A stretch of DNA of 64,000 nucleotides, from positions 1,426,001 to 1,490,000 of the forward strand of contig OZ374561.1 of assembly GCA_977862235.1 (NCBI GenBank), in the 5' to 3' direction. Source of the DNA: Dudresnaya verticillata. Its lineage: Eukaryota. The translations under genes were made by a program, and so were the position numbers. The notes beneath the pieces were generated by a model. That model made no database searches and was not told the DNA's origin. It saw nothing but the letters and a program-made list of their open reading frames with translations. Positions 38,158-64,000 of this stretch are shown here, one piece after another (the stretch's first letter is position 1; each line of letters starts with the position of its first letter).

Positions 38158-38445
38158 TACTTCTGAGACGCTCAACAATCACACGCCGCTGGCGGAGTTC
38201 GTACGATACTTCAACAACGGTCTTGACTCCGACATTGAGTCAATTACGCCAAAGGTGGAAACAAACAAACACACGTCAACGACGTTGGACCAAACGACGC
38301 CAAGGGCGGAACTCAAAGACACGCCCTAGGCGGTGGGTACACGAACGCGTGCACAGAAACGACGTAAAAGACGGGGTTTTATGCACGTCACTGGCGAAGT
38401 TAGTCAACTGTACGTCTTCGACGGGAACCGTTTTTACGCCAAAGG
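36074..38445 (+). mobile_element. Relic fragment A' of an A-family Gypsy element (antisense-ORF region and leader only)
   Basis: Reverse complement aligns with ~39527-41915 of element A; no gag, pol or LTR of its own remains here. Confidence 0.9.
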
Positions 38446-39356
38446 TGTAGTGCAAACGTCGATGACGGGCACCGCCGAGCAGTTCGGGGCTCGGTGGGTA
38501 GCGACGCCTGCGGCGATGAGTGGCCTCGCCGTGGGCGTCTGGTGGTAGAGCGGTTAACTCGCCTTGGGCGGACTGTAAACGCCCTTGGCGGAAAAGAAGA
38601 ACAAAAGGAAACAGAAAGGGAACACGTCGAGGATGGGTAGAGAGGTGGAAGCACGGAGGTAGACGCTTAGCCGTAGGCAGCGGTAAGGTACGCGCGTGCT
38701 GAACGGGGAAGTCTGGACCAAGGCCGGCTTGCTGGGGTTTACTGTGACGTCTCAGACGGATCAACTAAGTACAGGATTACCTAGCGCGGCGACGCGTGCG
38801 TAGGCGCCGCGCGGGAACTTGGGACACGTGTTGTCCCGAGGCGCGTCTGACAGATCCGTACGTCATGCAGCCGCGCTCCTGACGGATCACGCGTAGCGTC
38901 CCCGTTCGAGTCCTTACACCTACACGTGGACTATTTCCTTACAGCCGCATGCGCCTCAGGGCGCGTGCGATCTTGATTCACGCCAATCCCGATCCAGTCC
39001 GGATTCGGGCCAGCCATGCGAGTGTGCCAAACTTACAGGCGCGGGCCTTACACTTCGTAATCCCGATGTCGGATCCCGATGTGGGATCCCGATTGGATCC
39101 GGATTCGGGCCACGCTTACAGCGAACGTTCCTGCCACTGCGCCACGCGCGCACGCGTGGCGCCGTACAGTACCCCGGGTTCAGGCGTGCGGTCTGCACGC
39201 CAAGCGAGCCGTTCTGGCCCGAGTGGCCAGCGGCATGCGTCGGTGACGTGTTTGCGCCGCGGGCGGGTTGAGCGCGCCGTTGGCGGTCGTCCGTCGGTAG
39301 ACGCTTCATATCAAACCGCTTGAAAGCGAAAATGGGGGAACCCCCCCGGCACTACA
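38446..39356 (-). repeat. Inferred 3' LTR of element A (911 bp)
   Basis: Perfect 8-bp terminal inverted repeat TGTAGTGC...GCACTACA; preceded on the minus strand by PPT GGAGGGGG (39367-39360); left edge coincides with loss of A/A' homology; partner LTR not in window. Confidence 0.78.
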
Positions 39357-39817
39357 CGACCCCCTCCGAAAACGCGAACACCTCAACCTGCTTCAACCTG
39401 CCAGCTTCCCCGCGCCTGCGTCTCTTCCAGTGCCGATCGTGCTTGTCACCCGCGTCTTCGCGCCTGCGTTTGCCCGCCCTTGGCGTTGGTTGAGCCCCGT
39501 CAAAGACGCACGCGCAGTTTCCCCCGCCCTTGGCGTAGGAACATTTCCCGTCGAAGACGTGTCGTTGACTAACTTCGCTAGTGGCGTGCGTGAAACCCCG
39601 TCGTTGACGTCGTATCGGTGCACGCGTGTGTACGCTTATCGCCTAGGGCGTTTCTTTGAGGTCCGCCTTCGGCGTCGTTCAGTCTAACGTCGTTGACGTG
39701 TGTTGTGCGTGCTTCCGCCTTTGGCGTAGTGGGCTTGACTTCGAAGTCCCAGAACCGTCATTGACGTATCGTGTGAACTCCGCCCGTGGCGTGTGATTAC
39801 TCAACGTCTTGGACGCA

Positions 39818-42124
39818 ATGGCACAGTTCAATGGCCTACGAGTGGCTGCGCCTTCGGCGGCGCCGGTGTATCCGTCACCATTCGACTTCGTCGGGAGGAC
39901 TCCCCGCAACGATGCGAGCTTATTCTCGCGGGCACCCTGGTTCGACCAGGAGGCCCTGCGACATGAGGACCTCATCACCCATTACGCTGTGAGCGGGTTT
40001 TTGCCAGGGGAGTTGCCCCTGGCCGTCGTGTGGACGAACGAATGGCGCCATCGGTGCGCCATTCCGCGGGTTTGGCTGCGTATTGCCGCCGGCCAGACGC
40101 GTGCAGATGCACATGCGCGTTTCGTCGTTGACGTGTATCGGCGGTTTACCCGCTATCCTGGGTGGGTATTGACGCCCACCGTCTTTGCATTTGACGCAGG
40201 GCAGTACCGCACTAATGGCGAGGTTGGGTATGGGGACCGTCTTGGAGCGTTGTCATTAAGCCATGTGGCTGTTTCGGCTGAGCCGCGGGTGCTTCAGGAG
40301 GCTAACCTCCTTGGGGTACGCTTGAAAGCGGATTTCCGGTACTTACATAGGACAGGCACCTTCTATTGGGAGCGCTGCGTCCGTTGGGAGTGCGAAACGC
40401 GCCGCCGCAAAGGCGTTTTTGTGCCGTATCAAGATACGCAGGTTGATCGCATTGAGCGGGAAAAGTTGCCGCACTGGTTCATTCGTGTCCCGCCGTTGTG
40501 GCGGGACTTTGAATTCTGCGAGGGCTTTGCGGCTGAAGTGCCTCCGTGTGTCACGTATATCGGCTCCGAGTTGCGTACGGATCCGTACTCCCGAAGTTGG
40601 ATCGTATTCTTCACCGAGTGGGTCATTAATGTGACCTACGCATGGATGTGGGATGTGTATGACACCTTCCGGCTCTATTATGTGCCGCCACGCGTAGTCA
40701 GCCTCCTTGGCGGGCTTGACTTGACCGAAGTGCTGGGCGGTGCCAGGAACTGCCAAGAGTTCTGGGATTTACGCCATGTGGCGGATAACGTCAACTGGGA
40801 CGACCCGGCAGCTGTGCCGCCGGGAAACCGGCGCCGTAATGCAAACCGTGCGCGTTACGCGATGAGTAGAAATCATTCCGCCTGTGGCGATTGGGTATGG
40901 TACAACCCTTGGACCAAACGTCTTACGACGGAGAATATCGCTGAGAGCCACCGTCGTACGGATCGCTTCACGCCAGCGAATCACCCACGTGGGTTGCGCA
41001 AGAATTGCGACTTTGCGGGGGATTTCCCACCCCACTTGAGCGCCTTGATGGCGGAGGAGGATGCGTTCCACGCGAACAGCGGACCGGTTAACTCGTCTGG
41101 GACGGACATCGTTACGCCTATGGCGGTTGAACTTTCTGCGGGAGCGACAGCCCCCGCGACGATTTCGCCAGCGGCGGTAGGACCGTCGGCTGTTGTGCCT
41201 GTTGGCTTGCCGTCGGTTGCGCCATTGGATCTCTCGGCGCCCGTCAACGACGGTGATGGTGATGCCATCATGGCTGCGCCCGTGGCGAGTCCTGCGTCTG
41301 CAGTTCCGCCTCAAGGCGGAGTGTCTAACGTTGCCGACGGTGCGCATCGCCCTTCTGCAGTGCCCGCATGGACTGAGGAGCAGCGCCGCACGGTGCTCGC
41401 ATTCTTGCGAGCCACCGGTGTCGTCACTGACGGGTCGGGCGGGTCCTCCACGACGCCCCTCGGGCACTCGCTGTTGGCTGCTCTGCACCCCAGCGTTGCT
41501 GCGGTGCCGGCGTCGACCGTCGTTGCGAATGTGCCGTCTAACGACGAAGGTACAGCGTCTAATGACGAAGTGGCGCAGAAGCCGTTGTCGCCTAAGGCGG
41601 GTGGTGCGGGTTCGTCCGCCATTGCGTCTGCTGACGTTGTTAGCAAAAGTCCGCCAAAGGCGAGTGCGGTGGCAGCGCCTACGGCGGCTCGGCAGGCTCC
41701 GGTAGCCTCTTCGTCGGTGACGGATGTTGATCGTTCAACGCCTTTGGCGGTTAATGCGGTCCCGTCACCGGAGGTGCCGGGGCCGTCGACTTCGCCCAAG
41801 GCGGTTGAGGATGCTCCACCGCCAAAGGCGAGTGAGCTTCCTAGTGTAGCGCCTAAGGCGGATAACGACTCTAACGTTGCGCCTATGGCGGTTGACAAGC
41901 AGTCGTCGCCTAAGGCGGATTGTGAGACAGGTGCGTCGCCAGCGGCGGATGTCGCGACTTCGACAGCGGTGGTTGTGGCGGGTCCCTTGCGGTCCGTTCC
42001 TGCCCCTGCTGCGAGCGCACCGTCGGTGACGGAAGACGATCTCTACGAAGAGGCGTTAAGGGAATCCGCCAATGGCGTTGGGGATGATGCCCCATCTGAG
42101 CCGTCTGCGACGAAGAAGCCGTAA
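39818..42124 (+). CDS. Antisense accessory ORF-X of element A (768 aa; Trp-rich domain of unknown family plus Ala/Pro/Ser tail)
   Basis: Uninterrupted ORF opposite to pol, starting ~460 bp from the 3' LTR; homologous to 57555-59237 over ~390 aa. Confidence 0.88.
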   Translation: MAQFNGLRVAAPSAAPVYPSPFDFVGRTPRNDASLFSRAPWFDQEALRHEDLITHYAVSGFLPGELPLAVVWTNEWRHRCAIPRVWLRIAAGQTRADAHARFVVDVYRRFTRYPGWVLTPTVFAFDAGQYRTNGEVGYGDRLGALSLSHVAVSAEPRVLQEANLLGVRLKADFRYLHRTGTFYWERCVRWECETRRRKGVFVPYQDTQVDRIEREKLPHWFIRVPPLWRDFEFCEGFAAEVPPCVTYIGSELRTDPYSRSWIVFFTEWVINVTYAWMWDVYDTFRLYYVPPRVVSLLGGLDLTEVLGGARNCQEFWDLRHVADNVNWDDPAAVPPGNRRRNANRARYAMSRNHSACGDWVWYNPWTKRLTTENIAESHRRTDRFTPANHPRGLRKNCDFAGDFPPHLSALMAEEDAFHANSGPVNSSGTDIVTPMAVELSAGATAPATISPAAVGPSAVVPVGLPSVAPLDLSAPVNDGDGDAIMAAPVASPASAVPPQGGVSNVADGAHRPSAVPAWTEEQRRTVLAFLRATGVVTDGSGGSSTTPLGHSLLAALHPSVAAVPASTVVANVPSNDEGTASNDEVAQKPLSPKAGGAGSSAIASADVVSKSPPKASAVAAPTAARQAPVASSSVTDVDRSTPLAVNAVPSPEVPGPSTSPKAVEDAPPPKASELPSVAPKADNDSNVAPMAVDKQSSPKADCETGASPAADVATSTAVVVAGPLRSVPAPAASAPSVTEDDLYEEALRESANGVGDDAPSEPSATKKP

Positions 42125-43335
42125 CGTTGTTGGATCGTTAAGCACGGTTAGCAAACGCGAGAGCGCGTGTGGTGTCGCTTTGCCTGCCCCGTGGTGGGGC
42201 GGCAAGCGAGGGATTCATACGTCATAGACGGTTAGTGTCGCGTCTCACGACGTAGGTCGTAGTGGAAGGTCATGTGGGCACGGGGGTTACCCTCGTTTGT
42301 GAAGCCCGAATAAACTTGACCGTTGTTAACACGTAGTTGCTTGTGTGTTCGCTTGATGTAGAGCGCTGCGATAGCGAATAGTATGTAGCCGACGGGTCGC
42401 GTTCGTATAGACGTTGTTGTTTTCTGTCCGCTGTAGTAGCGTTTGCGTAGAAGCTTGGGGCGGTGCCGCCTTGGTGGCGTTTTTCTCCCTTCTTGATGCC
42501 GCTACAGTAGCGTAACCCCTTTCTGGGAGGGTCCATTTTCTCATGCCGACTTAGTCGTTTTGTTGCTCAAATTGTTTTTCCGCTTGTTGAGCGAATGTGT
42601 AGTTGGGGGAGCCGTTTGTCGGTAGGCTTTTCGTCTTTGACGTAGGGCATGTTGGGTTAGCGTCGGGGACGGTTAGCTTGGCGATGCGCCGCGCGTGGGG
42701 CGCGTTTCTTGCGACTCCTGGGCGTGGCTGCCGCGCCCAGCGGCGGAGTCATTTTTGCGACTAGCGCGTCGTGCACGAAACGTAGCCCAACTCCATCTTC
42801 GACGACTGTTTCTCCTCTCGTGTTTGCGGCGACCCGTTTTTCGGCTTGAGACACGTCGTTGATGTTCGCGGGCGTCACCCTCGAGGTGGTTGCGTGTGCC
42901 GCCCGTAAGGGTGGCGGGTTTCGGACTTGGTCGCGTGGGTGGCGCGCCTGGGCGAGGACGTCGGAGACGGTCGATCGCGTCCGGGCTTGGTTGCCTCGTG
43001 GGCATTCGTAGTGCTGGGCACACACACACTTGTCAGGTTCTCGTTTGTTGGGCGCCGCCGCCTGGCTGGTGCCCGCGTTATTATTTTCGCATTAAACTTT
43101 TTCCTGTCGTTGCTGCCCGATTTCGTGTGGTGCGTGCGCCCTCCACGCCTTCTGATTACTGTCAGCCGTTCTGTCCTTACGGACCCCCTCCGAAGAGGGT
43201 TGCCTATTCGCGTGTCGCCAACCCAATCGTCCTTGATCCGGTTGATTACAGCCCCCGTCGTCCGTAACGAGTGCACGTCCGTCTCAATCCGTATGTGGCG
43301 GGTGTTTTCGCTTCCAGCGTCCACCCTGACTAGGG

Positions 43336-46300
43336 TTACCCGCGTTGCGCGTCGTCGATGTTTGGCGGCAGGCGCGTGTGCTTCTGACGGTGATACCGCA
43401 CAACGTGCGATCGCGGTAGACTGGACACTGGTTCCCAAGTATTCGCTGAAGCGGGGTATCCAAACCACTTGACGCGGTAGAGGATCTCGCCGTCTTCTGC
43501 GTGTGCGTGCGACTCAACCCGTTCGATAACGTACTCCTCCGCGCTTGGAGCGGTCGACGTAGGCTCCTGCCGTTCTAGCGCCTTGAGCGGCTCACTTCGT
43601 TGCGTGATGGGCGTCTGCACCGGTTCGGCAAACCGTACTCGACGAGTCGATCACCTGAGGCGCTGGGTCGGTGCCCCGAGGGCTTGCGTAGCGGGTTGTG
43701 GTTCGTCGCTTTTGCGTACTGGTTCCTCGCTTCTAGCGGCATCTTTCGCGTTAGCGCGGTCGTCCTCATCGGCAGTCGATGCGCTCGAAGCGGGACCTAC
43801 CTTGGTAGCCGGCGAAGCCGAGGTTGCGTGTCCCATTCGCGTACGGATGCCGGGACCCTCCTCCTCGTCGGAGACGGATTGCGAGACACCGTCGTCGGGG
43901 TTAGCAGCAAAGGGCGAGAGCTCTGCTAACCCGCGGCTTCGTGGTCGTTGCATTCATTCGCTCCTGCGAGTCGTTCGTGCGGCGCGGCGTCCCTGTGCCT
44001 CCTGCCGGGTCCGCCTGCGGCGTGTCTGGGGTTCCTGCTCCTTCGTCGGTTGACGTGGGGGCCGGTGGTCCCGATACGTCAGGTGATCCCGGTGGTTGCA
44101 CGGTTGCGGGGGCGTTGTGCCCTGGTGGGGTTGGCGCCCATACCACGCGGTCTCGGGATAAGCATTCGCGTTCGCCACGTCCCTTGTCGACGGTGACTGT
44201 CCCGTCGTCGACGTGTGTTACTCGATACGGTCCATCCGCTACAGGTGCGAGCTTGTGCTTGCGCTCTGAGCGATCGGTGCTCCCGCCGCGGGCGAAGTAT
44301 TCTTTCCGCACGAATGCGAAGTCTCCCACAGCGATGTTCTCCTTCGATTTCCTCAGACGAGTATCGAAGTTCCGTTTGTAACGCGCCTGCGTTTTCGCGA
44401 GTGGCGCGTTAGCGGTTCCAATCAATGCGGACAGCCAGGTTCGCCATTTGGTGTAGTACTGTCCGGCAGTGGGCACGCTTTCAAGCGACGGCTCCGCTTC
44501 CAGCGACAATGGCCGCGGGGGCTTAGATAGCACCAACTCGAATGGAGCGAGGTGGGTAGACGAGTGCAGTTGCGTATTGTATGCGAACGTCAGAGCATCG
44601 GTGAACAAATCCCAGTCCCTGGCGTAGTGACGCAGGGAGGCGAGGATGGTTCGATTGAATCGTTCCACTTGGCCGTTACACTGCGGGTGGTATGTAGTGG
44701 TGAAGAGATTCTCCACCCCTAAAATGCGGCAGACGTCCTGGAACAACTTGGCTACAAACTGCGACCCGTTGTCGGACAGCAGATTCTTGGGTGGGCCATA
44801 CACAAACACCCAGTGTCGAACAAACGCCTTAGCGATTTCCAATGCCGTAATCTTACGTAAGGGAACCGTCCGGACCAGCTTTGAGAAGCGGTCCACGATG
44901 ACGAGTAGGAACTTATTCCCCCGCTTAGTGCGTATGAGCTCCCCGAGTATATCGATGGACACAAACTCGAGAGGCTCGGTTGCTGGGAACAGTTTCATCT
45001 CCTTCACGTTCTTTCGCATCAGTACCCGGTTCTTCGCGCAAGTAACGCAATTGCGGACGGTCGCGTAACAGTCCACCGACATAGACGGCCAATAATACTC
45101 GCGTCGAAGCGTATGGTACAGCTTCCGCCCTCCGGGATGTCCTGCTAATTTAGCATGATGCCGGAGGTGGAGCAATCGAACGCGTAACGCGGATGGTACA
45201 ACGACTTGGGGTCGGGCCTCGACGGTCCGGACCAATAGTCCCTGTTCGTCCGTTTCAAACGGTAGGTTGTCTCCGTCGTCTAGACGTTTCCGAATCTCAG
45301 AACAGTACTGGTCGCTGCCCTGAGCATGCACCAACTCTTCATGCGTCAATTGACGGAGGAGCACTTCATCCGCCGGTGGCGCGCTGGTAACCAACATCTG
45401 GTCAAATTCCTCGAAGTCTCGTTCGGAGAAATCGACTTCGCCCTTGACGTTTGACGTATCGCTTTCTGCGTGAGCGTGTCCTCTGACGAGAGGTCCTCGT
45501 CTTTGACGCAGCTTCCGTGGTAACACGGGATATCATCGTCGATTGGTTCGACCGTTTCGCCGTTCGTCTGTAGACGTGAGAGGGCATCTGCCTGAGTATT
45601 CAGGTACCCCTTTTTATACTTCACGACGAAGTCGAACTCAGAGAGGCGAAGGCCCCATCTCATCAACCGTCCCGAGGGGTCGCTGATTTCCATGAGCCAC
45701 CTCAACGACGAATGGTCCGTATAGACTACGAAGGACTCCATCTGAAGGTACGGTCTCAACGTCGTGATCGACCAGACTACTGCCAAGCATTCCTTTTCGG
45801 ATACCGAGTAGTTACGCTCCGGAGCGATTAACGAGCGTGACCAGAAGCCAAGCGGCTTCCGTTCGCCGTCAGGCTGCGTTTGAAAGAGTGCGCAGCCAAC
45901 TTGGTACTCGCTCGCGTCACAATCGACGGAGTACGGTAGTCCTTGTTGTGGCAGCGCCAGGATGGGCGGGTGAGTCACCGCTTCGACAAGCGTACTGAAT
46001 GCCCGAGCTTGCTCCTCGGTGCACGGTTGTAACCGGAAGTCTTGCTCTTTCCTTAACAATTTGTTGAGGGGAGCGGCGACATGCGCGTATCGCGATACAA
46101 ACCGTCTATAGACGTTGCATAATCCGAGAAAGCTCCGTAATTCCTTCTGGTCCCGCGGATGTTTGGCTTCGCGTAACGCGGCTGTGACCGTACGGTCTAC
46201 TTCCAATCGTCCCGGACATATCACATGGCCGAGATAGTTGACGGTCGGGGTGAAGAAGTCACACTTGGTTAACTTCAATGTCACCCCGGCCCGATGCAAG

Positions 46301-47514
46301 GTCGAAAGGATCTCGTCAACATGACGGAAGTGACTGTCGATATCATTCGAGAAGATGATCACATCGTCAAGGTAGACGAGGCATGAGCGCCACTTGTAAC
46401 CAGCAAGCAGGATATCGAGGGTCCGTTGGAACGTGGCCGGTGCGTTAGTAAGGCCGAAGGGCATACGTTTGTAGCGGAACAATCCGGCATGGCACGTGAA
46501 CGCTGTCTTGTCGCGATCTCGCGGGTTAATGGGCACCTGCCAGTAACCACTATTGCAGTCTAGGGTGGTGAAGATGTTCGCTTCCCCTAGACTGTCAATA
46601 CATTCATCGATTCGCGGGAGAGGGTACGTATCTCGTACCGTTACTGCGTTCAAGCGACGGTAGTCAACGCAGAAGCGGAGTGTACCGTCCTTCTTGGGAG
46701 CGAAGACGACCGGCGACGCCCATGGCGATTGGGCGGGTTCGATAACCCCCTGACGCAACATGCGATCCACCTCCGCTTGAGCGAGTTGCCTTTGCTTTGG
46801 GCCAGCGCGATAAGGCGGGGATGAAATCGGCCTGGAGCCGGGGAGCAAGTCAATATAGTGCTCCGTGGTTGCGATTTCTCCTAATGAACCGTCCCACATC
46901 GACGAGTACCTGCGCAGCATCTCCTTCAGCCGTCCTTGATGTTCGGCTGAGAGATGACTCAGGTCCAACTCGTCCACTGACGGAGGTTTCGCTATGGTTG
47001 CTTCGATCGACTTAGCGAATGTATCCGGCTGTGCCGTTACTCCATCATTCGTTTGAAAACGGAAATCTTGATTCGCCTCTTCCTCCGCTGCCTGCTCCTT
47101 GGTGATACCTAGGACACCGGCCAGACTTATGTGACTGGGGAACACTGCTGTGGGATGTGGCAACGCGGTAGCAACGACTTGTCCCTTGACGAGCGCTTGC
47201 GGACGCGGGGAGAAGTTTGCGACGAGAATCCTGAACACTCTCTGCGGCTCTACTTGAGCGACTCCGTTAGTAACGGCCAAAGCTTGCCGATCATATAACG
47301 TTCCAAACGGTTGGATGGTAATGACCCCTGCTCGCTCGGTCGTTACCGAGATCCACTTTTGCGCCTGCGGCGGGATGATCGTTCGTTCCGCAACGCGTAT
47401 CTTGGGCGACGTTCGTCCTCCGGCCGTGCCGTACTCCTGTTCCGTTGGCAACGGGGGGTACGACGAGGGACGGCGCAGCGGGCGGCGCGTTATAGGGACA
47501 CGGGTCCCGTCGTC
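43336..47514 (-). pseudogene. pol: pol of element A (RT-RNaseH-integrase-chromodomain), frameshifted
   Basis: [51 protein letters not shown], chromodomain YVIERVESH..YRVKWFGYP..TWEP; frame breaks near 45.5 kb and 43.6-44 kb. Confidence 0.93.
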
Positions 47515-48290
47515 TGTGGCGCAAATCGCCTTCGCGCCCTGTTGAAGAATTCTTCTTACTGCCGTCGATCGCGGCTCACGCGACTGCCGGACGACGGACG
47601 CACAGCGACCGTTTCGTGCGGATCAACCGCTGTGCGGGTGATTGAGCTCAGAGCCAATTTCTGTAATGAGCTCTGGCACCACGCGCACGCACCAGCAATG
47701 CTAATGGGGAAATGCCTCTGTAAGGCGCCCGGCCTGACAGTACGCGGCGCCCTCTGCCAGCAAGGATGGCCCCGCAACGCGACAGCGCGTACACGTGCAC
47801 ACGTGCGCCTCCTTGGCGCACACCTTTCAGCCGCACTACCGCTAGGCTGACAGTTGATATTTGTAGATAATTATAGAATTGCGCGCGCCACGTATTGCCA
47901 AGTGGCGCGCCCCCTTCCCTTACTTTAATCCGCCACCAAGGCGCACCCGCCTCCTACATAGTATAATAGGGCCCTGAGGTGCGCCCTCATACAGTAAACG
48001 GCCAAGCTTGGGCCCAGCGAGACGTACCCTCCTACCCTATCGACTCCCTCCTTAGGTTGGACTCCAGTACATCCGCTACCCATCTTCATCGTACAGAATC
48101 CTGTTTTTCTCTTGTTTTTTCCCTGTTTTCTCTTCCCTTCTAGGGTAACCCCCTTTCTCGGTCTTGTAGTGTTTTACAGTCGCACTACGGGGCTATTCCC
48201 CTGCTCTACCGCTACTACCTCACCTGCTACCGCCAGGCCCCCGAACCGCCTGAGGTGCACCCTCAATTCTACCGAGTGGATTGCAGCACG
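47515..48290 (+). repeat. 5' LTR of element B
   Basis: Direct repeat of 59372-60147 (about 4 internal substitutions by eye); ends TTGCAGCACG instead of TTGCACCACA. Confidence 0.95.
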
Positions 48291-50611
48291 TGCGCAGGCA
48301 AGTCCTGCAGTCCAAGCCGCTTTTTCGGCAATACCCAATGAGGCGGTTCCTCGCATTCCCCCTCGGTTGAGGTCTTACCTCCTGCCCCAGCCGGGACTCT
48401 CCCGACTGGGCAAGAGCAAGGCAGGCAGCCGGCACCTCCGCCGCCGCTGCCCAATCCACCGCCGCCGATTTCGGCATCAGTTCCGCCTCCGGTGGAGCCA
48501 CCCACAATCCAAGAGGAAGCACCTCGTGTTGCCTTCATACACGGGACAACTATTCCCCGAAGTGCAATTCAAGAGGTATGCCTCATGGAAGACCAGGCTT
48601 TTGCCGCCCGGCTGTCGCGTCAGATAACGGACAGCTTGGCTTTGGTCAACCAACGTATCGACGAGGTTAGTACTCGACTTGACCTCGTCCTGGAGAATCC
48701 TCCACAGAACCACGCGGACCTCGCCGTCGAGGTCCGCACACTTCGAGGAGACGTTAACCGCCTCCTCGAAACCTACGGGGCTACTCCCGCAAGGGGGCCC
48801 CGTCCGAATCCCCCAAGCCTACCCGCGCAACTTCCGCTCGATGACCGCATTACGCGGATTGCCGACCGCTTGGAGCGCCTAGAGGGCATATGCCTCAACG
48901 AGCGCGAACCGCCCCTGCCTCCCGATGACGGAGGCGCGAACAGAAGACAAGTCGAATTCGACAGTCACGCTCGACATGGGGACACTTACCCCAAGGACAG
49001 TTGCCCTTACGGGTGTACGGACCACCCTCATGATGACGACTACCGTCAAGACCGCCGTGAATCACGAAGTCAAAACCGTCATCATACCTCAACGCGGAAT
49101 ACCCGCAATCGCCGTCACCACCGCCACGGCTACGGAACTTCCTCCCGGTCGGCGTCCGACGACTCGGACTCAGACCGCTCCGACGGAGAAGTTTATGGAA
49201 ATCCCCGTCGCGATGATGGTATACGACGCAAGGGGCCGCGGTATAAGCATCTCAAGGAGCTGAAACCAACGAACCCCTTGCACGACCAATTGCTGTCTTA
49301 CAGGCACTACCGCCTACAGAATACGGAACAATCCCGTACAAGCCGACAGACCGGCAAGATCAAGGACCAGATCAAAAGACTGGAGTTAACCATGAAGGAT
49401 TGTTCCTTTAATGGGGAAGACCCGTGTTGATTTTGGAGTTTCTCTCCCGGTTAGTCGACGAAGCCGACACTCTCGACATGTCGGAAGCCCAGGCGTTCAT
49501 CGCCTTGCCCTACTTCTTACGCGGAAATGCCGCTACTCAATTTCGCTCCGTCAAGACCGCTCCGTCCCGTTCTAATGGAGGAGTGTCCTCATGGCCCGAA
49601 GCTGTGCAGTATCTTCTGCGGACGTACGCGACACCGAGCGCGCTACGTGAGGCAATCCTCGAGCTCCGCGCTCTCCGGCAGAACGCGGGCGAATCGGGAA
49701 CACTCTTCGGGATGCGAGTCTCGAAAGCGTGTAACCGATGTGGCAATGTCCACAAGGAATGGGAGAAGATGACGTACTTCATCGACGGTCTGGACCCGAG
49801 CATCCGCTCGCTGGTCGCCTGGTATCGAGAGGAAACTCCTCGTCACGAATTGTCGTTTGAACGACTAGTGCATTATGCACAAGATGAAGGTGAAGCTCAC
49901 CGTGGAAGAAATCGCGCACCACGCGCTGGACAAGACCAACTCGCGGGCCGCACCGCAACTACAGGAGGACGTCGTCCAGGACGCGGAAATTCCGCTATGA
50001 TGGCTGAGTCTTCTATCGAATTCCGAGACGGAAGTGGAGTTCCACGTAGGCAGGTGGGCGAGCAGGATGCCGAGGTGCACCTTTTGTACCCGGACGCGGC
50101 ACTGCTGTCGTCCGACCCACCTACCGACTCACAAGTAGAATCCTACGGAAGCGAAGATAATGCGCTTCTCATGCGCTCTCGTCAAGTCCCGGCTCCGCGC
50201 ATCCCATACCAGGAGCATTCACCTGGTATGAAACGCACACGGCCGGGCTGTAAAGATAGGTGAAATCCCCAAAGGAACTTCGGTCCCAAGCAGACAATCA
50301 TCTGTCACATTTTCTACAAGCCTGGGCATGTTTCACCCGAATGCTTCTTAGCATGGAAGGACTACCTGAGGATTATCCTCAATTATAAATCGCTCAGTGC
50401 GGTCGACCGCGAGCGTGTGCCGGCTACGTCCTACATGAAGGCGAAAGCACAGGCACAATACGATGAGGGAAGTCCTCAAGGTCGACCCCAGGTACCGCCC
50501 CCTGTGGTACCCCACACTAGCGAACGCCACCCTCAGGCGTTCGCGCCCGTTGGACAGCCCCCTTCGAATGGGCGCGACGGACGAGCGGACACCCGGAATT
50601 CGGAAAACTAG
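48291..50611 (+). pseudogene. gag: gag of element B (disrupted)
   Basis: Pro-rich N-part, FNGEDP/VLILEFL (frameshift ~49422), SWPEAVQYLLRTY, FIDGLDPSIR, in-frame TGA at 50261, degenerate knuckle CHIFYKPGHVSPEC, stop TAG 50609-50611. Confidence 0.85.
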
Positions 50612-53600
50612 TCGGGGTCATACCCCCTTCGACTGGGGAACGTCAAACGGAAACATTTCCGGTCGACATTCAAGGGTCACGACCCGACAAAAAGGAGAAT
50701 ATAACTCCAAAGACTATACTGCAGAACCCTGCAAGGACTAGACGGACCTCGGCCTCGCCACCAACGGCAGGATTACGTAGGCCCTGGCACCAGTACCGTC
50801 CACCGCATGCACAAGGCGAATTGCTGATAGCGGCAAAGCGCAACTTTAAAGTATACGCAGATACGGGTTTACACCCAAGCTACCTATCGCGTAAACTTAC
50901 TGTGCTAGATACCGGTGCCGGTCCCAACTTTATCAGAAAATCTGAACTACCACCTCAAGCGGAGTCCCGCATTCGAGACGGGGACATCCCCACCATCAGC
51001 GACGCCAACAACAGGCCGTTGCAAACATCCGGCGTCATCGCCTTGGTCGTTCGACTGGGCGACCGTATTGTCAAACTTGACTTTATTGTCTGCGAAAGAC
51101 TCGCCGCCCCGGTCATCCTCGGATGTAACTTCTGCGACCGTTTCGTAGAAGCCATCTATCCGAGGACCCGTGAAGTCGAACTCGACAATGGAACTCGCGT
51201 GCCGATTACGCGGCGACCATTGAAGCGACCGCCCACGGCTCCACCACTACCTGCTGATCAGGAGTATGAGCCACTACGAGGCCATACCTCAACGAAAATA
51301 CGCGTAGCGGGACGAACCGTAATCCCAGTCCAAGCGCAAAAGTGGGTTTCAGTAACCACAGAACGCGCGGGGCTGATTTGCCTCCAGCCCTACGACAAGC
51401 CGTATCACCGGCAGGGAATCATCGCAACGAATGGAATAGCCCATGTTGAACCAAAGCGGCCGTTCCGCATTCTAGTCGCGAACTTCACTTCGCACGACCA
51501 AGTTCTTCCGAAGAACCAGGTCGTCGCGACCGCCCTCCCGCACCCCACCGCCGTGGTGCCCAGTCCCATCCGGCTGGCGGACGTGCTTGGGCTGGCTGAC
51601 TTAGCGGACGATACCGCAACAAAAACCCAACGACTGGGAAGACTGTTGAATACGACAAACAAAGGTGACGCTCACGCGAAGACCCTTGAAGCTGAAAACG
51701 AACCTCCACCTTCGGTGGACGACGTGGATTTATCCCACTTGGCCGAGAATCACGCCCGGCGTGTGCGGGATTTACTTGGTAGGTTTTCTACAATGTGGGA
51801 TGGTTCACTAGGTGAAATCACCACTACGGAACATTACATCGATATGATTCCGGGTACGAGGCCGTTCTCGTGCCCACCCTATCGGACGGGTCCGAAGCAA
51901 CGCCAAGTGGAACAAGCGGAAGTTGACCGCATGCTACGAGCTGGTGTTATAGAACCGGCACAATCTCCCTGGGCATCTCCAGTTGTTCTAGTGCCGAAAA
52001 GGACGGTACCTTACGATTCTGTGTCGATTACCGACGTTTAAATGCCGCGACCGTTCGGGATACATACCCGTTACCGCGCATCGATGAATGTATCATTCAC
52101 TCGGCGAAGCAAATGTCTTCACTACGCTCGATTGCAACTCGGGGTATTGGCAAATCCCCATCAACGGTCGCGATCGTGACAAAACCACGTTTACATGCCA
52201 TGCGGGAACCTTCCGCTACAAGAGAATGCCATTTGGCCTTACCAATGCACCCGCTACCTTCCAGCGGACCCTGAATATCCTGCTCTCAGGTTTCAAGTGG
52301 CAGACATGCCTCGTTTACTTGGACGATGTTATCATCTACTCCAAGGACGTGGAAACCCACTTTAAACACGTCGAGCAGATCCTGACTGCATTGGACCAAG
52401 CCGGGGTTACCCTCAAACTGAAGAAATGTGACTTATTCACAAACACCGTCAACTACCTGGGCCATATCATCTGCCCCGGCGAACTGCGGGTTGACCCAAC
52501 GGTTACTGCGGCACTCCGCAAAGCAAAACACCCACGCACACAAACGGAATTGAGGTCTTTCCTCGGATTGTGTGACGTATATAGGAGGTTTGTCCCCCAA
52601 TTACTCTCACGTGGCAGGACCACTGAACCGGCTCCTCAAAAAGGATCACCCGGACAATATTGAGTCGCTCGACGACAAACAAGAGGCCGCGTTCCAGACG
52701 CTGATCAAAGCTGTCACGGAACCACCGGTACTATCTCTGCCAAAACCTGGCTTGCCCTATTCTGTCGATACCGACGCGTCGAACTACCAGGTCGGTTGCG
52801 CCTTATTCCAAACGCACACCGACGGTACGCGGAAACCCCTCGGGTACTGGTCCCGTTCTCTACAAGCCGCCGAAAAGAATTACTCGGTTTCCGAGAAGGA
52901 ATGTTTGTTACTGGTGTGGGCTGTTACCACTTTACGGCCCTACCTCCAAATGGAAAAGTTTACCATACACACCGATCACTCCTCTCTTCGTTGGCTAATG
53001 GAGATTAATGATCCCTCCGGGCGCCTTATGCGCTGGCGCCTACGTATGTCGGAATTCGACTTTGACGTCCGCTACAAAAAGGGACGCATCAACACCCAAG
53101 CGGACGCCCTTTCGCGTCTTCAAACGCTTGGCGAAACGCAAGTCGACATCGACGATGAAATTCCGTGTTTCCACGTTGAGGCGGATGCTCCTTCAACCTG
53201 CGCCGTTTGCGATAATGAGGAATTCCTCGAATTGGACGACGAAGTATCCGACCAACTCCTTCTGGCGAATCCGCCGTCAAACCAACCTGAGCTCTTGCGC
53301 CCAATCACGACGGAAGAGCTTCTTCAAACGCAACTAGCAGATGCTTTCTGCACCTTCCTGCGTTCTCGTCTTAACGGGGGGGAGGGGTTACCGTTCGCGC
53401 TGGACGAGACAGGAGTCCTCATTCGCACACGAGAGGCACTTCCTCAAATTGTAATACCATTTACTCTTCGCGCACGGGTGCTACACTTGGCACACTTCCC
53501 GAAACTATCCGGACATCCCGGTGGGCGCAAGATGTATTACTCACTCCGTAGATCATTCTACTGGCCTTCCATGGCTGTGGACTGTTACGCCACGGTAAGA

Positions 53601-55814
53601 AACTGCACAACGTGTGCACGCAATCGCGTTATGCTACGCCGTAATACCAAGCATATGAAGCTGTTTCCAGCAAAAGCACCCCTGGAGTTTGTCTCCATTG
53701 ACATCTATGGCGAACTGATTCGCACGAAACGAGGCAATCGATTCCTCTTTGTCATCACAGACCGTTTCTCCAAACTCGTTCGGACAGTTCCGATGAAGAA
53801 GATTACGGCTGCGAAAGTTGCCGAAGCGTTCATTACGCATTGGGTCTACGTCTACGGACCTCCGTTGTATCTACTATCAGATAATGGCGGACATTTTGCC
53901 GCAAAGTTGTTTCAGTCGTTATGTGGAACTTTGGGGATCAAAAACCTCTTTACTACAACCTATCACCCCCAATACAATGGGCAGGTTGAGCGGTTCAACC
54001 GCACAATGCGCGCCGCGCTACTGCACTACGTTGCGGACCATCCGCGTGAATGGGATTTATTCTCAGATGCCATCACCTACGCGTACAATACGCAAGTTCA
54101 TTCTACCACGAACCCTGCCCCCTTCCAGCTGGTACTCTCCAGACCTCCACCCGCTCTAAGCGTCGAGGCACATCCCTCACTGGAACCAGTGCCGAGTTCG
54201 GCTACATTCCACGCCAAGTGGCAATCCTGGCTCACAGGACTACTGTCAACGGCCACAAAAGGCGTTGACCAGACACAAGCGCGATACAAACGCAATTTCG
54301 ATAACAGGGTACATCCCTCACGCGACGTCATCGGAGTAGACTCCTACGTCTACGTACGTAAGGAGTACTATGGGAAGGATACCCCAAAACACAAACTGGC
54401 GCCTATCGCCGACGGCCCCTATCGCGTGAATGACGCAAATGATAAGACGGTCACCGTCGAGAAGGACGGGCCTGAATACGAGCGGATTTCCCGCGACAGA
54501 GTCGTGTTGGCGCCCACCCCACCAAGGGACGCGACCAACCAAGCCGACGCCGAAGGGACGGCAGGCCCGACAGATGCGGATTTACCGCCAACAAACGATC
54601 TCAATAACGATCATACTCAAGTACAGTGCCCTGACGGAGCTACTGTGTCTCACGGGGAAAATGCCCCAATTACTTTTCATGCTGTGGCACCAGCCACACA
54701 GCCACGAAATGATCGCGGGTTGGCGGATTTACCACCGCTGACGGTACCCGGACGCACCGCTGGCGTCCGCACGCGGACTACCGCAACTCACTCACCACCC
54801 ACCACACGCGCCGACGCCGCCGCTTCCACTCCAACTCCTGCTCCCGCAAGTTCGGAGCCGGGATCCAGGACAGAGAACGACGCCCGCGCAAATGGGCACC
54901 CCATCGCGGATCAGCCGCACGCTGTCTCAGAAGGCACCAAGGCCGTCAACGGTACAACAGAGGGAATTCCTCATGATACCTCACCAAAGGCACCAGCGAC
55001 ATCGCCCGACGACCCCCACTCGGAGGAAACTCCTCGTCAACGGCAACCCGCGCAGAATACCGGCACAACCGCCTCCCAGGAGAATACTCCACAAGAAGCA
55101 GCAACGCGAGATATACTCCGCAAAGGCTCGCCTATTCGTCGGATAACGGAAGACTTCGAGCCACACCCATCCGGGACACTACACACCCATCGCCTAACAC
55201 CCGCCGCAAAATCGGCTGACATCAATCAGGTGGATGAGCCACGGCCCCTTAGTCAGGCTGAAACCCTACCCGCTGACGGGAAGGACCCCGCTCCTGAAGG
55301 AGAGACACGCGATGTGTCGCCAGACGCGTCTAGAACGCAAGACAACCACAAGGAGAATTCTCCACGCTCACCAAGAAAGAGCGTCACGTTTGACGACACC
55401 ATTAGGGAAATCCCTACGCGGCCTCTCGTGAGCCGGAGCCTCGGATCAGAAGCGGCAGACCGCAATCAAGTCACAACCGCGACCATTGGCACACCAAGCC
55501 CCAGACGGAGTCGCCGTATAGCTACCGCCGTTCCGCGCGTGTCACAATCGGACCCTCGGCCTAATGACACCGTGTCATCACGGCACCGACACCATGCCGA
55601 CATTCCGCAGCGTGACGAGTATGTCATCGAAAAAGTGGTGAACCACAGTTATGATAATACAGAACTGCTGTTTGAAGTCAAATGGTACGGCTATCCGTCT
55701 GCGCAAAATACATGGGAGCCCATACAACATCTACCGCGGAGTCAAGTTATCTCCTATTGCAAGAGGAGACGTCTCGGCGTCCCCTCCACCATCACCAAGG
55801 CCATGGTGGGCTAA
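50602..55814 (+). pseudogene. pol: pol of element B (PR-RT-RNaseH-IN-chromodomain), -1 frame to gag, three frameshifts
   Basis: LDTGAG, YLDD, DTDAS, EKEC, GHPGG..CTTC, IN core, DGPY, chromodomain YVIEKVVNH..FEVKWYGYP..TWEP; shifts near 51997, 52095 and 52597. Confidence 0.95.
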
Positions 55815-57554
55815 CCCCCAAACGCTACCAGGTCCAAATGAAGTGGAGACACCACATTGAAGAGTCCCCGGGAGTCGATTCCACAGTGGTTGCTGCACAC
55901 ACGACGGAGGTACTGTACGCCACGGTATAACACCTGATTGGCCAGACGCTATTTTAATTAACGCCGCACGAATCAGATGCCCGTTATGCTCACCCACTCA
56001 CCTAGCGGTCTACCGCAACTGGTCGCCATCGTCGCTTCCAAAGTCGAATACGACTAAGTTAACGATTCAAGCATACACAAAACGGGATTCCGTAGCGATT
56101 TTTCCTAGCCACCAACGGCTTTGAGCTGCCGTTCCCCCATCCGAAGGGGAACGCCGTGGCGCAGGCTGTACACCAAAAAGCGGAATTCCGCATCGCAGGG
56201 CGTTCGCGTCAACGACAACCCGACGCTCACGACCCCTATGACATGAGGCGCTCCATACCGCCTTTGTGGCGAATCCAAAGGGGAACTCCTCCGCGTGGAC
56301 TGTAGCAGCGTGCAGCCGTACGCTATGGCCGTCTCCAAGCCGTCTGCGGCGGAGCCTACCAAAGCTGCCATCCTTACAACGGAATTCCGTAATCACGGGA
56401 CTGAGCAGTCGATGGCCTTTGGCACCCGCTCCCCCATGGAAAAGTGGATATCTACACCTAAATCGCACCACGATGTGGCGTTCCACGAACTTCTTTTACG
56501 CCCAATAATTGGGGAACACCCCTACAAAGGCCATAACCAACTACTGTAGCCACCTCTCCGTTGCCTACGACAGACTCTCTAACAGCAATTATGCTGAAAC
56601 GGAATTCCGTGAACACTCACCGCGGGCCACGAGCAGACTGGTGTACCCCTGACTCAAAGAGATGGGTGTACCTCCGCCTGCGTGTGCCCATGCGGCACCT
56701 ACCTCCGCAAACGTTCGAGACAAGTGGTATTCCACACAACCGAAAATCCGCGCCCAAGCCCCTCGGCGCTCCTACAGTGGGGAGGCCATTGTTCACGTGG
56801 CATTCCACTTATCTAGACGGACTGGGTCACCCTATCGCCTAACTACCCAGAGAGGCGCGTACGCAACTACGTCCGGCTAGCCGGGTCAGCATGCAACATA
56901 GGCAAACAAGCTCGTTAACAGACTTCTGTACAACCAATTAATCTGGCTAGACCACAGTGCGCGTTTGGGCTACTGCACGTGCCACAGTACAGGACCGGGC
57001 TACTGTACTCCCTTCAGGTTACGTGCCTCAGGCCACTCCATGGATTCCCATTGGGCGATGACGGTGCCAATGTACCCCCGCACCAATCACCTGCCGTGCG
57101 CCTCTACACAGTCCACCCTAGCGGAAAGCCGCAGCTGCCCCTCACCTTCTCCCCCAAGTCGTTCACGACTAAGTGGGAATTGCGAGCCATGCCCAGAACG
57201 GAAATCCGTACCTACTGCTCTAAGCCGCCAACGGCCTTGAACACCCGCACGCCCAGTGGTCGGAGCACACCTACGTGCAAGTCGCTTACGATTTGTGGAC
57301 TTCCACACTACGCGTCGTACGCCTCAATGATGGCATATTGCGACCCCCGCGTTCGCCGACATCTACGTATGCGAATCACTGCGCTGTACTACCGCTCAGG
57401 GAGCTCCCCTAAGAGCGACTCGCCGCATGATGGCAAACAAGAACTCAAACAGGCAAACTTTTAATAAGTCCTGATTATGGCGATGCCCTCCCTACTACGA
57501 CGCATGGGCTAGTCCCACAGGGTCGGTTGCCCCACGCCATATGTCGATGCTCGG

Positions 57555-59237
57555 CTAGATATCAGCAGGCCCGCTTGGGCCTGCTTCCTCCTCGCCATCC
57601 GGGTTATACCCCTTACCCACGGCCACCTCGAGGAGCTCCTCATCGCTGCCACGGATGGCAATCTCGGGAATTCCCGTTCGACGCAAGAAGCCGATTACGG
57701 CAATGCGCTGACTGAAACTCAGTCGCACACGTCGTGCGCGAGGCCGGCTCTCCGGATCAGGCGATGGCGGCCGAATAGCGGGCGGCCGAACGATCGGCAC
57801 GCTCGCAATAGCAACGCCGCCGCCGCTGCTCCCACCCGCGTCAACCGCCGCTTCCGTCGCCGCAACCGGGGCATCAGCGGTAGTCGGCGATGCCACGACT
57901 GGGCAGTCCTCCCCTACAGGTGCATCGACCGTCATGGTATCATCCTCGGGAAGTTCCCCATTGTCATCTGAACCCGAGAAACTCTCCTCGTCGTCCGATT
58001 CTGGCACCCCAACCGCCTCGGGATCCACCAGGTAGCCTCGCGGCTGCCCCGGTGGCATCGAGCGCGGGTGGCTGCGCAACCAAGCGGCACGGTCCGCAGA
58101 AACAAAGGTGCGCGTCCACGGGTCGAACCAAGCCCAATCGCCGCACAAGGGGTGCCGACGCCCAGGCGAAAAGTTCGTAGCCGAGGAACTCCTCTTGTTG
58201 TTACACAACGGGACGCGCTGCTCGTCGCGGTCCCAGTCGATCTGGGAGAAGAACCCCAACAATACGCGGAACTCCGCTTCATTATTAACGCCACCAAGAA
58301 CAACCTTGAAGTCCAACTGGTCAAAGCACCCCAGGACTGTGGGCGACACGTACCACATGCGGTACGTGTCGTAAAGTTCCCACAGCCACTGAGTCGCCGT
58401 CTTCGCCACGAATTCCGTGTAGTAGACGGTCCACAGCCCGGATTGCGGGTAGCCGATGACCGACGACATGGTGTAACTCACCGCAGGGGACAACTCCACG
58501 AGGAATCCCTCACAGCACTCCACCAGTCCCCATTGCGGGACTGGCAGCCGAATATAGCCTCGATCTCGATAATTGCGATGAATGGCGTCGATCTCGACAT
58601 TGGGGTATGGGACCAGGAATCCTAGACGGGAGCGGACGCGCCGCTCCCACCTGATCTTATCCCAATACGCGTTGTTCGCCCGTTTGCGTATGAAGCGGAA
58701 TTCCGCACGAAGTTGTACCCCCATCAGCAGAGCCGACTGACGAACCCACGGCTCCACTCCATCCCACGCGTGCGGGATGGGGAGGTTCTCGAGGGCGTCC
58801 GCATAGGGGATTTCCCCATTGGTGCGATACACACTCAAATCCAACCAGTATCCATGAGGAATAACCTCTCGACCCGGCGTACGCGACAATCGCTGCAGAA
58901 CCAAGCGGACATACCGCAGCCGCGCCTTGCGGACGTCCTCGCCGCCATGGCGACGGATCCACTCCGGCCGAATCGCACCATGGCGACGCCAGTCAGGCGT
59001 ACGGAGGACACGGAGGGGAAGTCCCCCAGGTAGGTAACCATCATCCGAGACATATTGCTCAATCAGGGCATGGTTGCCAAAGTTAGAGTGGAACATCCAC
59101 GGTGCATTCGCAAAGTCGATTAGGTCGTTCCACGGCGTCTTGCCCTCGAAGTTGGCCGGCGTCGGATAACTTGCAGAACTCTGCGGCGCATGCAGTAACA
59201 CGCGGTCAAGTTCCGCAAGCGAAAAGTGGGGAGGCAT
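57555..59237 (-). CDS. Antisense accessory ORF-X of element B (560 aa)
   Basis: Intact ORF from ATG 59237, 135 bp inside the 3' LTR boundary; collinear homology to A ORF-X (YRTNGE, CEGF, W.W..YDT.R, VLGG, CGDW.W..PWT, PRG). Confidence 0.88.
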   Translation of the reverse strand: MPPHFSLAELDRVLLHAPQSSASYPTPANFEGKTPWNDLIDFANAPWMFHSNFGNHALIEQYVSDDGYLPGGLPLRVLRTPDWRRHGAIRPEWIRRHGGEDVRKARLRYVRLVLQRLSRTPGREVIPHGYWLDLSVYRTNGEIPYADALENLPIPHAWDGVEPWVRQSALLMGVQLRAEFRFIRKRANNAYWDKIRWERRVRSRLGFLVPYPNVEIDAIHRNYRDRGYIRLPVPQWGLVECCEGFLVELSPAVSYTMSSVIGYPQSGLWTVYYTEFVAKTATQWLWELYDTYRMWYVSPTVLGCFDQLDFKVVLGGVNNEAEFRVLLGFFSQIDWDRDEQRVPLCNNKRSSSATNFSPGRRHPLCGDWAWFDPWTRTFVSADRAAWLRSHPRSMPPGQPRGYLVDPEAVGVPESDDEESFSGSDDNGELPEDDTMTVDAPVGEDCPVVASPTTADAPVAATEAAVDAGGSSGGGVAIASVPIVRPPAIRPPSPDPESRPRARRVRLSFSQRIAVIGFLRRTGIPEIAIRGSDEELLEVAVGKGYNPDGEEEAGPSGPADI

Positions 59238-59371: not shown

Positions 59372-60147
59372 TGTGGCGCAAATCGCCTTCGCGCCCTGTT
59401 GAAGAATTCTTCTTACTGCCGTCGCCCGCGGCTCACGCGACTGCCGGACGACGGACGCACAGCGACCGTTTCGTGCGGATCAACCGCTGTGCGGGTGATT
59501 GAGCTCAGAGCCAATTTCTGTAATGAGCTCTGGCACCACGCGCACGCACCAGCAATGCTAATGGGGAAATGCCTCTGTAAGGCGCCCGGCCTGACAGTAC
59601 GCGGCGCCCTCTGCCAGCAAGGATGGCCCCGCAACGCGACAGCGCGTACACGTGCACACGTGCGCCTCCTTGGCGCACACCTTTCAGCCGCACTACCGCT
59701 AGGCTGACAGTTGATATTTGTAGATAATTATAGAATTGCGCGCGCCACGTATTGCCAAGTGGCGCGCCCCCTTCCCTTACTTTAATCCGCCACCAAGGCG
59801 CACCCGCCTCCTACATAGTATAATAGGGCCCTGAGGTGCGCCCTCATACAGTAAACGGCCAAGCTTGGGCCCAGCGAGACGTACCCTCCTACCCTATCGA
59901 CTCCCTCCTTAGGTTGGACTCCAGTACATCCGCTACCCATCTTCATCGCACAGAATCCTGTTTTTCTCTTGTTTTTTCCCTGTTTTCTCTTCCTTTCTAG
60001 GGTAACCCCCTTTCTCGGTCTTGTAGTGTTTTACAGTCGCACTACGGGGCTATTCCCCTGCTCTACCGCTACTACCTCACCTGCTACCGCCAGGCCCCCG
60101 AACCGCCTGAGGTGCACCCTCAATTCTACCGAGTGGATTGCACCACA
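59372..60147 (+). repeat. 3' LTR of element B (776 bp)
   Basis: TGTGGCGCAA...TTGCACCACA imperfect terminal inverted repeats, followed by TSD TCGTC. Confidence 0.96.
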
Positions 60148-63990: not shown

Positions 63991-64000
63991 TTGGCCGGTG

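What the first reader, a model, noticed from the sequence alone, without database searches (positions are those of the whole stretch)
39818..59237. Conserved antisense gene family (ORF-X) carried by divergent chromoviruses
Seen: elements A (39818-42124, +) and B (59237-57555, -) and relic A' each have a long ORF opposite to pol, between the chromodomain and the PPT, with its start facing the 3' LTR. A and B have unrelated LTR sequences, yet the proteins align collinearly for ~390 aa (YP.P..F.G.TP.ND, G.LPG.LPL, YRTNGE..Y.D, GV.L.A.FR, VPY....D.I, E.CEGF..E, W.V..TE, W.W..YDT.R..YV.P, VLGG..N..EF, CGDW.W..PWT, PRG). They also share a distal helix QR..V..FLR.TG after a low-complexity linker. In A vs A' the domain is much better conserved than the adjacent non-coding leader, consistent with purifying selection. 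Known: antisense 3' ORFs occur in plant Tat/Retand/Grande elements, but I recognise neither this domain nor such ORFs in chromoviruses. Inference: a dedicated accessory protein expressed from an antisense promoter in the 3' LTR.
Basis: partly seen in the sequence, partly recalled or inferred. Interest (0 to 1): 0.9.

Follow-up and report, generated by a model that had tools for sequence, protein, structure and literature searches.

The report
Retrotransposon antisense gene with hairpin code
These jumping genes carry a backwards-facing extra gene that selection has preserved, whose protein has over a thousand look-alikes in sequence databases and a predicted shape matching no solved structure, and they are studded with element-specific miniature hairpin motifs that this protein may use to recognise its own element.

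Summary
Real. Two chromodomain Ty3/gypsy elements (A, B) carry an antisense ORF between chromodomain and PPT; relic A' carries a broken copy. Their ~390-aa cores are 37% identical, against 60% for integrase. A/A' dN/dS is 0.17. ATG-free leaders and downstream poly(A)-type hexamers fit a separate transcript, but expression is untested. The family is large: 1,157 clusters at 50% identity. None of 21 clusters looked up has a name, and none of 61 proteins scanned has a real Pfam hit. The one fetched outside locus shows the same layout. The AlphaFold2 model is confident (pLDDT 92.6) and matches nothing in PDB or BFVD (best Z 2.5). The arms covary, avoid a fifth pair and are held at synonymous sites. 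Best reading: a trans-acting accessory protein that recognises these mini stem-loops on its own element's RNA (Rev/CERV-like). That link is inferred only; VANC-like DNA binding or Gag packaging signals are rivals. Antisense 3' ORFs are a known kind; I found no record of this domain or motif code.

The parts
36071..38445 (-). Relic A': leader plus ORF-X copy (start 38157), frame broken near 37050, cut off at 36071
   Evidence: 88% to A over 2,406 nt; one 11-nt indel near the end of the core; ORFs 38157-36925 and 37057-36182
38446..39356 (-). 3' LTR of element A (ends TGTAGTG...CACTACA); 9 copies of the A motif
   Evidence: A's 5' LTR lies outside the window, so identity and TSD are untested
39360..39367 (-). 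Polypurine tract of A
39357..39817 (+). ATG-free leader of ORF-X(A) with 12 CGYC-N3-GRCG motifs in 461 nt, 23-50 nt apart
   Evidence: stems differ from A' at 5 of 72 sites vs 55 of 216 non-stem sites, Fisher p 0.0007
39818..42124 (+). ORF-X of A: core 39818-41002, then low-complexity tail with 20 motif copies (several encode S/P-P-K-A)
42309..42314 (+). AATAAA 185 nt after the ORF-X(A) stop; candidate poly(A) signal
43339..43548 (-). Chromodomain at the end of A pol
   Evidence: PF00385, E 3.8e-10
43901..47514 (-). A pol: RT, RNase H, integrase (frameshifted); its protease continues at 60148-60824
   Evidence: Pfam hits
47515..48289 (+). 5' LTR of B, inserted in A pol; TSD TCGTC at 47510-47514 and 60148-60152
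   Evidence: 99.4% to the 3' LTR over 775 nt
48342..55814 (+). B gag and pol (RT-RH-INT-chromodomain by Pfam; protease by similarity to A; frameshifted), enriched in xyGG-N4/5-CCy'x' motifs at synonymous sites
55815..57554 (.). Non-coding spacer of B with many B motifs (e.g. ACGG-AATT-CCGT, GTGG-TATT-CCAC)
57460..57465 (-). ATTAAA about 90 nt after the ORF-X(B) stop; candidate poly(A) signal
57555..59237 (-). ORF-X of B, 560 aa: core residues ~18-400 (modelled), acidic linker, distal helix-loop-helix
59362..59371 (+). Polypurine tract of B
59372..60147 (+). 3' LTR of B; antisense TATA-like box near 59725-59732 and sense TATA-like box near 59818 (candidate divergent promoters)
   Evidence: consensus match only

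Best explanation
ORF-X is a selected accessory gene carried backwards at the 3' end of chromodomain Ty3/gypsy elements, likely transcribed from its own antisense promoter, and its protein possibly recognises its own element by binding the element-specific 4-bp stem-loop motifs, probably on the RNA. In this model many copies coat the element's transcript at the dispersed motifs and protect or export it, as HIV Rev or Cer1 CERV do; the dense cluster in its own leader would allow self-regulation. Shown: gene, position, selection, family, motifs and their covariation. Predicted: the fold. Inferred: transcript, nucleic-acid binding, the motif as target, RNA rather than DNA, and the outcome. My odds: real element-borne gene about 0.92; binds its own element's nucleic acid about 0.55; the whole chain about 0.35.
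For: Selection: dN/dS 0.17, substitutions by codon position 15/16/52. Family: 1,157 clusters at E<=1e-3, 499 at <=1e-10. Linkage outside the window: L001, 1 of 1 locus fetched, has an ORF-X homologue (E 8.8e-30) convergent on an RH-INT-chromodomain pol. Transcript signs: ATG-free runs among only 4 of 331 and 5 of 340 ATG gaps >=480 nt; AWTAAA within 200 nt of the stop in 3 of 3 elements against about 5% of positions, host genes 2 of 9 within 300 nt (noticed post hoc). Protein: 42-47 Arg in ~400 aa; of 40 columns >=80% conserved, 7 are Arg and 9 aromatic, none Cys or His; hydropathy peak >=1.8 in only 3 of 81 sequences. Motifs: A has 39 of 39 CGYC-N3-GRCG sites complementary in its 3' region (Fisher p 2e-11) and 56 of 57 over 38446-47514; B has 43 of 101 GG-N4-CC sites with both outer pairs complementary vs 8.2 by permutation (host 9 of 113 vs 7.8). 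A fifth pair is avoided: 3 of 56 vs 15.8, and 4 of 43 vs 13.1. Motif geometry exceeds all 60 synonymous shuffles in 7 of 7 element CDS and 0 of 2 host genes. With loops 3-6 pooled, 6 of 9 in-frame element CDS but 0 of 9 host CDS are reached by <=3 of 500 shuffles. No tandem array underlies the motifs. Covarying arms with unpaired flanks point to a single-stranded stem-loop, not independent DNA half-sites (inference). Precedent: CERV (PMC10309623, abstract).
Against: No call links the protein to the motifs. They run through gag and pol too, and no ORF-X-less sister element was available as a control. L001 carries ORF-X yet shows only a diffuse hairpin excess (120 vs 72) with no dominant motif and with 5-bp stems also in excess. 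G-U variants of the 4-bp stems are not clearly enriched on either strand (z up to 2.4), which is awkward for an RNA reading. Equilibrium folding gives the hairpins a mean probability of only 0.22-0.39. Conserved acidic residues (D133, E142, E198, E240, E275, D367) could equally mark a catalytic site. A lacks a TATA-like box. dN/dS rests on one pair. Three of 9 in-frame element CDS were not clearly enriched in the pooled test.
Confidence: 0.35

Rival explanations
1. VANC-like anti-silencing factor: ORF-X binds the motif arrays in double-stranded or locally extruded DNA of its own family and keeps those copies free of silencing.
For: Same overall design as VANC/VANDAL: conserved domain plus variable low-complexity part, and family-specific short motifs at high density in non-coding parts (PMC5735166, passages). 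Motifs also sit in A's LTR (9 copies) and show no clear G-U excess on either strand.
Against: VANC motifs are non-palindromic and grow by tandem repeats; here no tandem arrays were found. A plain DNA-binding dimer would not force the two half-sites to covary or forbid a fifth pair. Spacing of 23-30 nt is not helical phasing. No Pfam hit to any plant TE domain.
Confidence: 0.2
2. The two features are unrelated: the mini-hairpins are dispersed Gag packaging or folding signals, and ORF-X is an accessory enzyme or protein-binding counter-defence factor with another target.
For: Motifs extend through gag and pol. L001 has ORF-X without a dominant motif. Dispersed stem-loop packaging signals are known in RNA viruses (PMC6281560, search listing only). 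Conserved Asp/Glu/Arg/Tyr residues in a compact fold fit an active site.
Against: In A the motif is densest in the ORF-X leader (12 in 461 nt vs 8 in 4,176 nt of pol), far from the 5' end where packaging signals usually lie (general knowledge). No known catalytic fold or motif was found.
Confidence: 0.3
3. Env-like or movement role: ORF-X is a particle or cell-to-cell movement protein occupying the env slot.
For: Same position as env-like ORFs (PMC7264820); a compact conserved fold would suit a structural protein.
Against: Antisense orientation; no hydrophobic segment in 78 of 81 sequences; no match to viral folds in BFVD.
Confidence: 0.08
4. Passenger: a captured host gene, or the gene of a separate element nested at this spot.
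For: Genomic context was seen for only 1 of about 150 stored homologues; the rest could lie in other element classes or in host genes.
Against: Same site and orientation in A, B and L001, whose pols are 49-60% identical; intact frame in B, whose LTRs are 99.4% alike; no terminal repeats or duplications around the ORF; diversity of 1,157 clusters fits a mobile-element gene.
Confidence: 0.07

Closest known systems
Antisense additional ORFs between pol and the 3' LTR (aORF-3R): maize Grande gene23, rice RIRE2, Silene Retand, PvRetro13, Botrytis Boty brtn (PMC7264820, main text read; PMC11963269, passages)
   Same: Position, antisense orientation, conservation across copies, likely own promoter, unknown function with a suspected nucleic-acid-binding regulatory role.
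   Different: No TRP28 (PF04195), Smc or other Pfam domain; a different ~390-aa domain with no fold match; carried by chromodomain elements; accompanied by dispersed covarying inverted repeats rather than tandem arrays. brtn was not compared by sequence.
VANC21/VANC6 of Arabidopsis VANDAL Mutator-like elements (PMC5735166, passages; PMC13547354, passages)
   Same: Element-encoded accessory protein with conserved core and variable low-complexity part; dense, family-specific short motifs in the element.
   Different: DNA transposon vs retrotransposon; VANC motifs are fixed, non-palindromic and tandem-derived; VANC resembles MAIN, while ORF-X shows no Pfam link; binding and anti-silencing are proven for VANC and untested here.
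CERV of C. elegans Cer1 (PMC10309623, abstract and outline) and HIV Rev/RRE (recalled)
   Same: LTR-element accessory protein acting on the element's own RNA; the working model for ORF-X.
   Different: CERV comes from a spliced Cer1 mRNA, not a 3' antisense gene; no sequence or fold link was shown; Rev uses one large RNA element (recalled), here dozens of tiny hairpins.

Membership tests
Chromodomain-bearing Ty3/gypsy (chromovirus) | PR-RT-RH-INT order, LTRs, PPT | tested here: met
   A's 5' LTR is outside the window; protease hits are weak (E 0.006 in A)
Chromodomain-bearing Ty3/gypsy (chromovirus) | Chromodomain after integrase | tested here: met
   PF00385 in A, B, L001
Chromodomain-bearing Ty3/gypsy (chromovirus) | RT tree places it in a named chromovirus clade | not tested
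aORF-3R class | Antisense ORF between pol and 3' LTR, conserved among copies | tested here: met
aORF-3R class | Own antisense transcript | tested here: inconclusive
   sequence signals only; no RNA data laid
Retand TRP28 ORFs | Transposase_28 (PF04195) domain | tested here: not met
   no such Pfam hit in 3 window proteins (E<=0.1) or 58 homologues (E<=0.05)
VANC / MAIN (plant mobile domain) proteins | Sequence match to the family's Pfam domains | tested here: not met
   that these domains are in Pfam is recalled
VANC / MAIN (plant mobile domain) proteins | Shared fold | tested here: inconclusive
   no PDB match, but I could not confirm that VANC21 is in the PDB copy and no AlphaFold DB was on hand
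VANC / MAIN (plant mobile domain) proteins | Binds family-specific motifs and lifts silencing | not testable with these tools
   motif arrays exist; binding needs experiments
env-like ORFs | Sense orientation and transmembrane segment | tested here: not met
   antisense; Kyte-Doolittle peaks 1.59 (A) and 1.14 (B)
HeH/LEM/SAP bihelical domains (distal motif only) | Profile match | tested here: inconclusive
   1 of 24 members hit HeH at E 0.17 and 1 hit Ish1 at E 0.047; no convincing PDB hit

The most novel reading that the evidence does not exclude
These retrotransposons run a self-recognition system: an antisense-encoded protein of a new fold reads a structural barcode, family-specific 4-bp mini-hairpins written into leaders, LTRs and synonymous codon positions along the whole element, and each lineage has evolved its own barcode together with its own protein.
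Probability: 0.3. Interest if true: 0.9.

Novelty: new variant of a known kind. Interest (0 to 1): 0.72.

Why it matters
The function of antisense pol-to-3'LTR ORFs has been an open question since Grande and RIRE2 (PMC7264820). This family supplies a large, alignable, confidently modelled protein and a concrete candidate target, with two natural specificities (A and B) side by side, so a swap binding assay can test the idea directly. The model matches no solved structure, so it is a candidate new fold. The covarying, length-limited mini-hairpins imposed on coding sequence are unexplained whichever protein reads them.

Tried and rejected
No host genome was held, so copy number, multi-copy dN/dS and an ORF-X-less control could not be done. 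No RNA holder was listed; that is no evidence on expression. Word-index protein searches found only 1, 4 and 3 relatives, none named. PDB sequence searches: best E 1.9 and 0.4. Foldseek: no match at E<=1e-3 in PDB or BFVD. VIA-align over 48,161 chains: best Z 2.5 for the whole core (rmsd 5.0, 127 aligned) and 3.8 for residues 175-345 (rmsd 4.6, 88 aligned); the N-terminal half was not folded alone, and a missing match does not prove a new fold. Homodimer prediction returned 'no answer' and is not used either way. The ESM Atlas gave no answer. PHROGs: 1 weak hit in 6 (E 0.039); NCBIfam 0 of 6; Rfam 0 in 35500-64000. Tandem-repeat origin of the motifs was rejected. The ORF at 61952-63826 is not ORF-X (best profile E 0.25). 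The 'A RT-RH' row and the RT comparison were read out of frame and dropped; the in-frame RT-RH row is. The tree was the quick version and was used only to choose queries. Literature searches showed no description of this domain or of such motifs; subscription journals, Repbase reports and supplements were not seen and may hold one.
Full report
Anatomy. Element B is nearly whole: LTRs at 47515-48289 and 59372-60147 (99.4%), TSD TCGTC, gag, and a pol ending in RH-INT-chromodomain. It sits inside the pol of element A, which runs on the minus strand with its chromodomain at 43339-43548, PPT at 39360-39367 and 3' LTR at 38446-39356. A' is an older relative of A (88% over 2.4 kb) of which only the ORF-X region survives. 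Both gag-pol regions carry frameshifts. ORF-X lies antisense between chromodomain and PPT in A (39818-42124) and B (59237-57555). The host was not identified by any search, and no genome was held.

The gene is real. The cores align at 37% while integrase is 60% identical, and the LTRs share nothing. A against A' gives dN/dS 0.171 in the core (0.11-0.26; Fisher p 1e-14) and 0.50 in the tail; leader identity is 79% against 93% for the core. All three antiparallel frames hold stops. Both start codons end unusually long ATG-free runs (485 and 578 nt; shuffle p 0.006 and 0.0003). AATAAA or ATTAAA follows the stop on the ORF-X strand in A, B and L001, against about 5% expected per site and 2 of 9 host genes; this was noticed post hoc. 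B has an antisense TATA-like box in its LTR; A has none. Expression itself is untested.

The family. A profile of four cores found 1,157 clusters at 50% identity (E<=1e-3), 109 at E<=1e-30. All 21 clusters looked up came from ENA, JGI/IMG or Logan assemblies and none had a name. Pfam gave nothing for 3 window proteins and only 4 weak, unrelated hits among 58 homologues. The shared layout is optional low-complexity N-terminus, ~390-aa core, low-complexity linker and, in 35 of 66 long homologues, a distal helix-loop-helix. The one outside locus obtained, L001, has the end of an ORF-X homologue converging on an RH-INT-chromodomain pol 49% identical to B's. Context is therefore known for 1 of about 150 stored homologues.

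The fold. AlphaFold2 on 150 sequences gave mean pLDDT 92.6 and pTM 0.90, mostly helical. It matched nothing in PDB or BFVD by Foldseek and reached Z 2.5 at best over 48,161 chains. The helical half alone (pLDDT 94.2) reached Z 3.8. This is a candidate new fold; AlphaFold DB could not be searched. Conserved columns are rich in Arg, Trp, Tyr, Pro and Glu/Asp, with no Cys or His, and no membrane segment is evident.

The unexpected part. A carries CG-Y-C-NNN-G-R-CG 39 times in its 4-kb 3' region, 12 of them in the 461-nt leader, against 3 in 35.5 kb of host DNA and 1 in all of B. Y and R are complementary in 39 of 39 sites there and 56 of 57 over 38446-47514. B has its own motif, xyGG-N4/5-CCy'x', with many arm types: 43 of 101 sites have both outer pairs complementary against 8.2 by permutation, maximum 19. 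Stems stop at four pairs (3 of 56 vs 15.8; 4 of 43 vs 13.1). The excess survives synonymous-codon shuffling in element genes but not host genes (one out-of-frame row dropped). Leader stems are better conserved between A and A' than their surroundings (5 of 72 vs 55 of 216, sites defined in A); no compensatory change was seen between these two copies. Tandem repeats do not explain the motifs. Against a simple story: no clear G-U excess on either strand, modest equilibrium pairing, motifs all through gag-pol, and only a diffuse excess in L001.

Mechanism. Covarying arms of fixed length with unpaired flanks are what a reader of small single-stranded stem-loops would select (inference). The element encodes one basic, aromatic-rich protein of unknown fold, and in A the motif peaks just upstream of that gene. 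Rivals: motifs read by Gag with ORF-X doing something else, perhaps enzymatic (0.30); VANC-like DNA binding and anti-silencing (0.20); env-like role (0.08); passenger gene (0.07). No call shows binding.

Comparison. Antisense pol-to-3'LTR ORFs are known from Grande, RIRE2, Retand, PvRetro13 and fungal Boty, function unknown (PMC7264820, parts 1-2 of 3 read; brtn also in PMC8365987, passages). Retand's usually carry TRP28 (PMC11963269, passages), which ORF-X lacks. VANC proteins with family-specific motifs (PMC5735166, passages; PMC13547354, passages; PMC12859917, passages) and CERV (PMC10309623, abstract and outline) are working analogies, not memberships. PMC6431247 and PMC2774666 (passages) added nothing on this family. 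Ten searches found no account of the domain or motifs; Repbase, subscription papers and supplements were not seen. An earlier unchecked AI note describes an antisense gene in a fungal element; it was not tested here.

Verdict. Observation confirmed; interpretation partly supported. A new variant of a known kind: the slot is known, while the domain, the candidate fold and the motif code appear not to be. Interest 0.72.

Noticed in passing
window 61201-64000: A further insertion interrupts A's gag. It holds a 624-aa low-complexity ORF (61952-63826, +) with a frameshifted Trp-rich end and no Pfam hit, and 47 YGGCCR sites in 2.8 kb (host 1.5 per kb) whose halves do not covary (23 CG, 9 CA, 8 TG, 7 TA). 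It looks like a third element with a true DNA-type motif array, possibly a large DNA transposon.
   Followed up: partly
window 38441-38452: A's LTR joins A' inside one motif copy (CGCC-AAA-GG then TGTAGTG). Could be chance, since motifs cover about 30% of the leader.
   Followed up: no
window 48285-48310: B's 5' LTR end differs from the 3' LTR end (GCAGCAC vs GCACCACA) and I recognised no tRNA primer site by eye; priming mode is unexplained.
   Followed up: no
window 39060-39108: Four degenerate copies of a 12-13-nt unit (ATCCCGATTCGG) in the middle of A's LTR.
   Followed up: no
window 35710-36070 (-): C-terminal fragment ending ...ARQTRIENYFQ, which by recall resembles the end of a pogo/Tc5-type transposase; A' is cut off where it begins.
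   Followed up: no
stored homologues P0007-P0169: A distal helix-loop-helix (..FLR..G....G....LR) is found in 35 of 66 stored homologues of 480 aa or more (partly by construction); it resembles HeH/LEM/SAP by eye only.
   Followed up: partly
window 1-35500: Compact host genes with long single ORFs: SSF-family transporter, kinase, PPR, bromodomain and JmjC proteins. The style recalls a red seaweed; not confirmed by a call.
   Followed up: partly
L001:1-4062: Diffuse excess of small hairpins, also at synonymous sites of pol (77 vs 48, 0 of 500 shuffles), with no single motif.
   Followed up: yes
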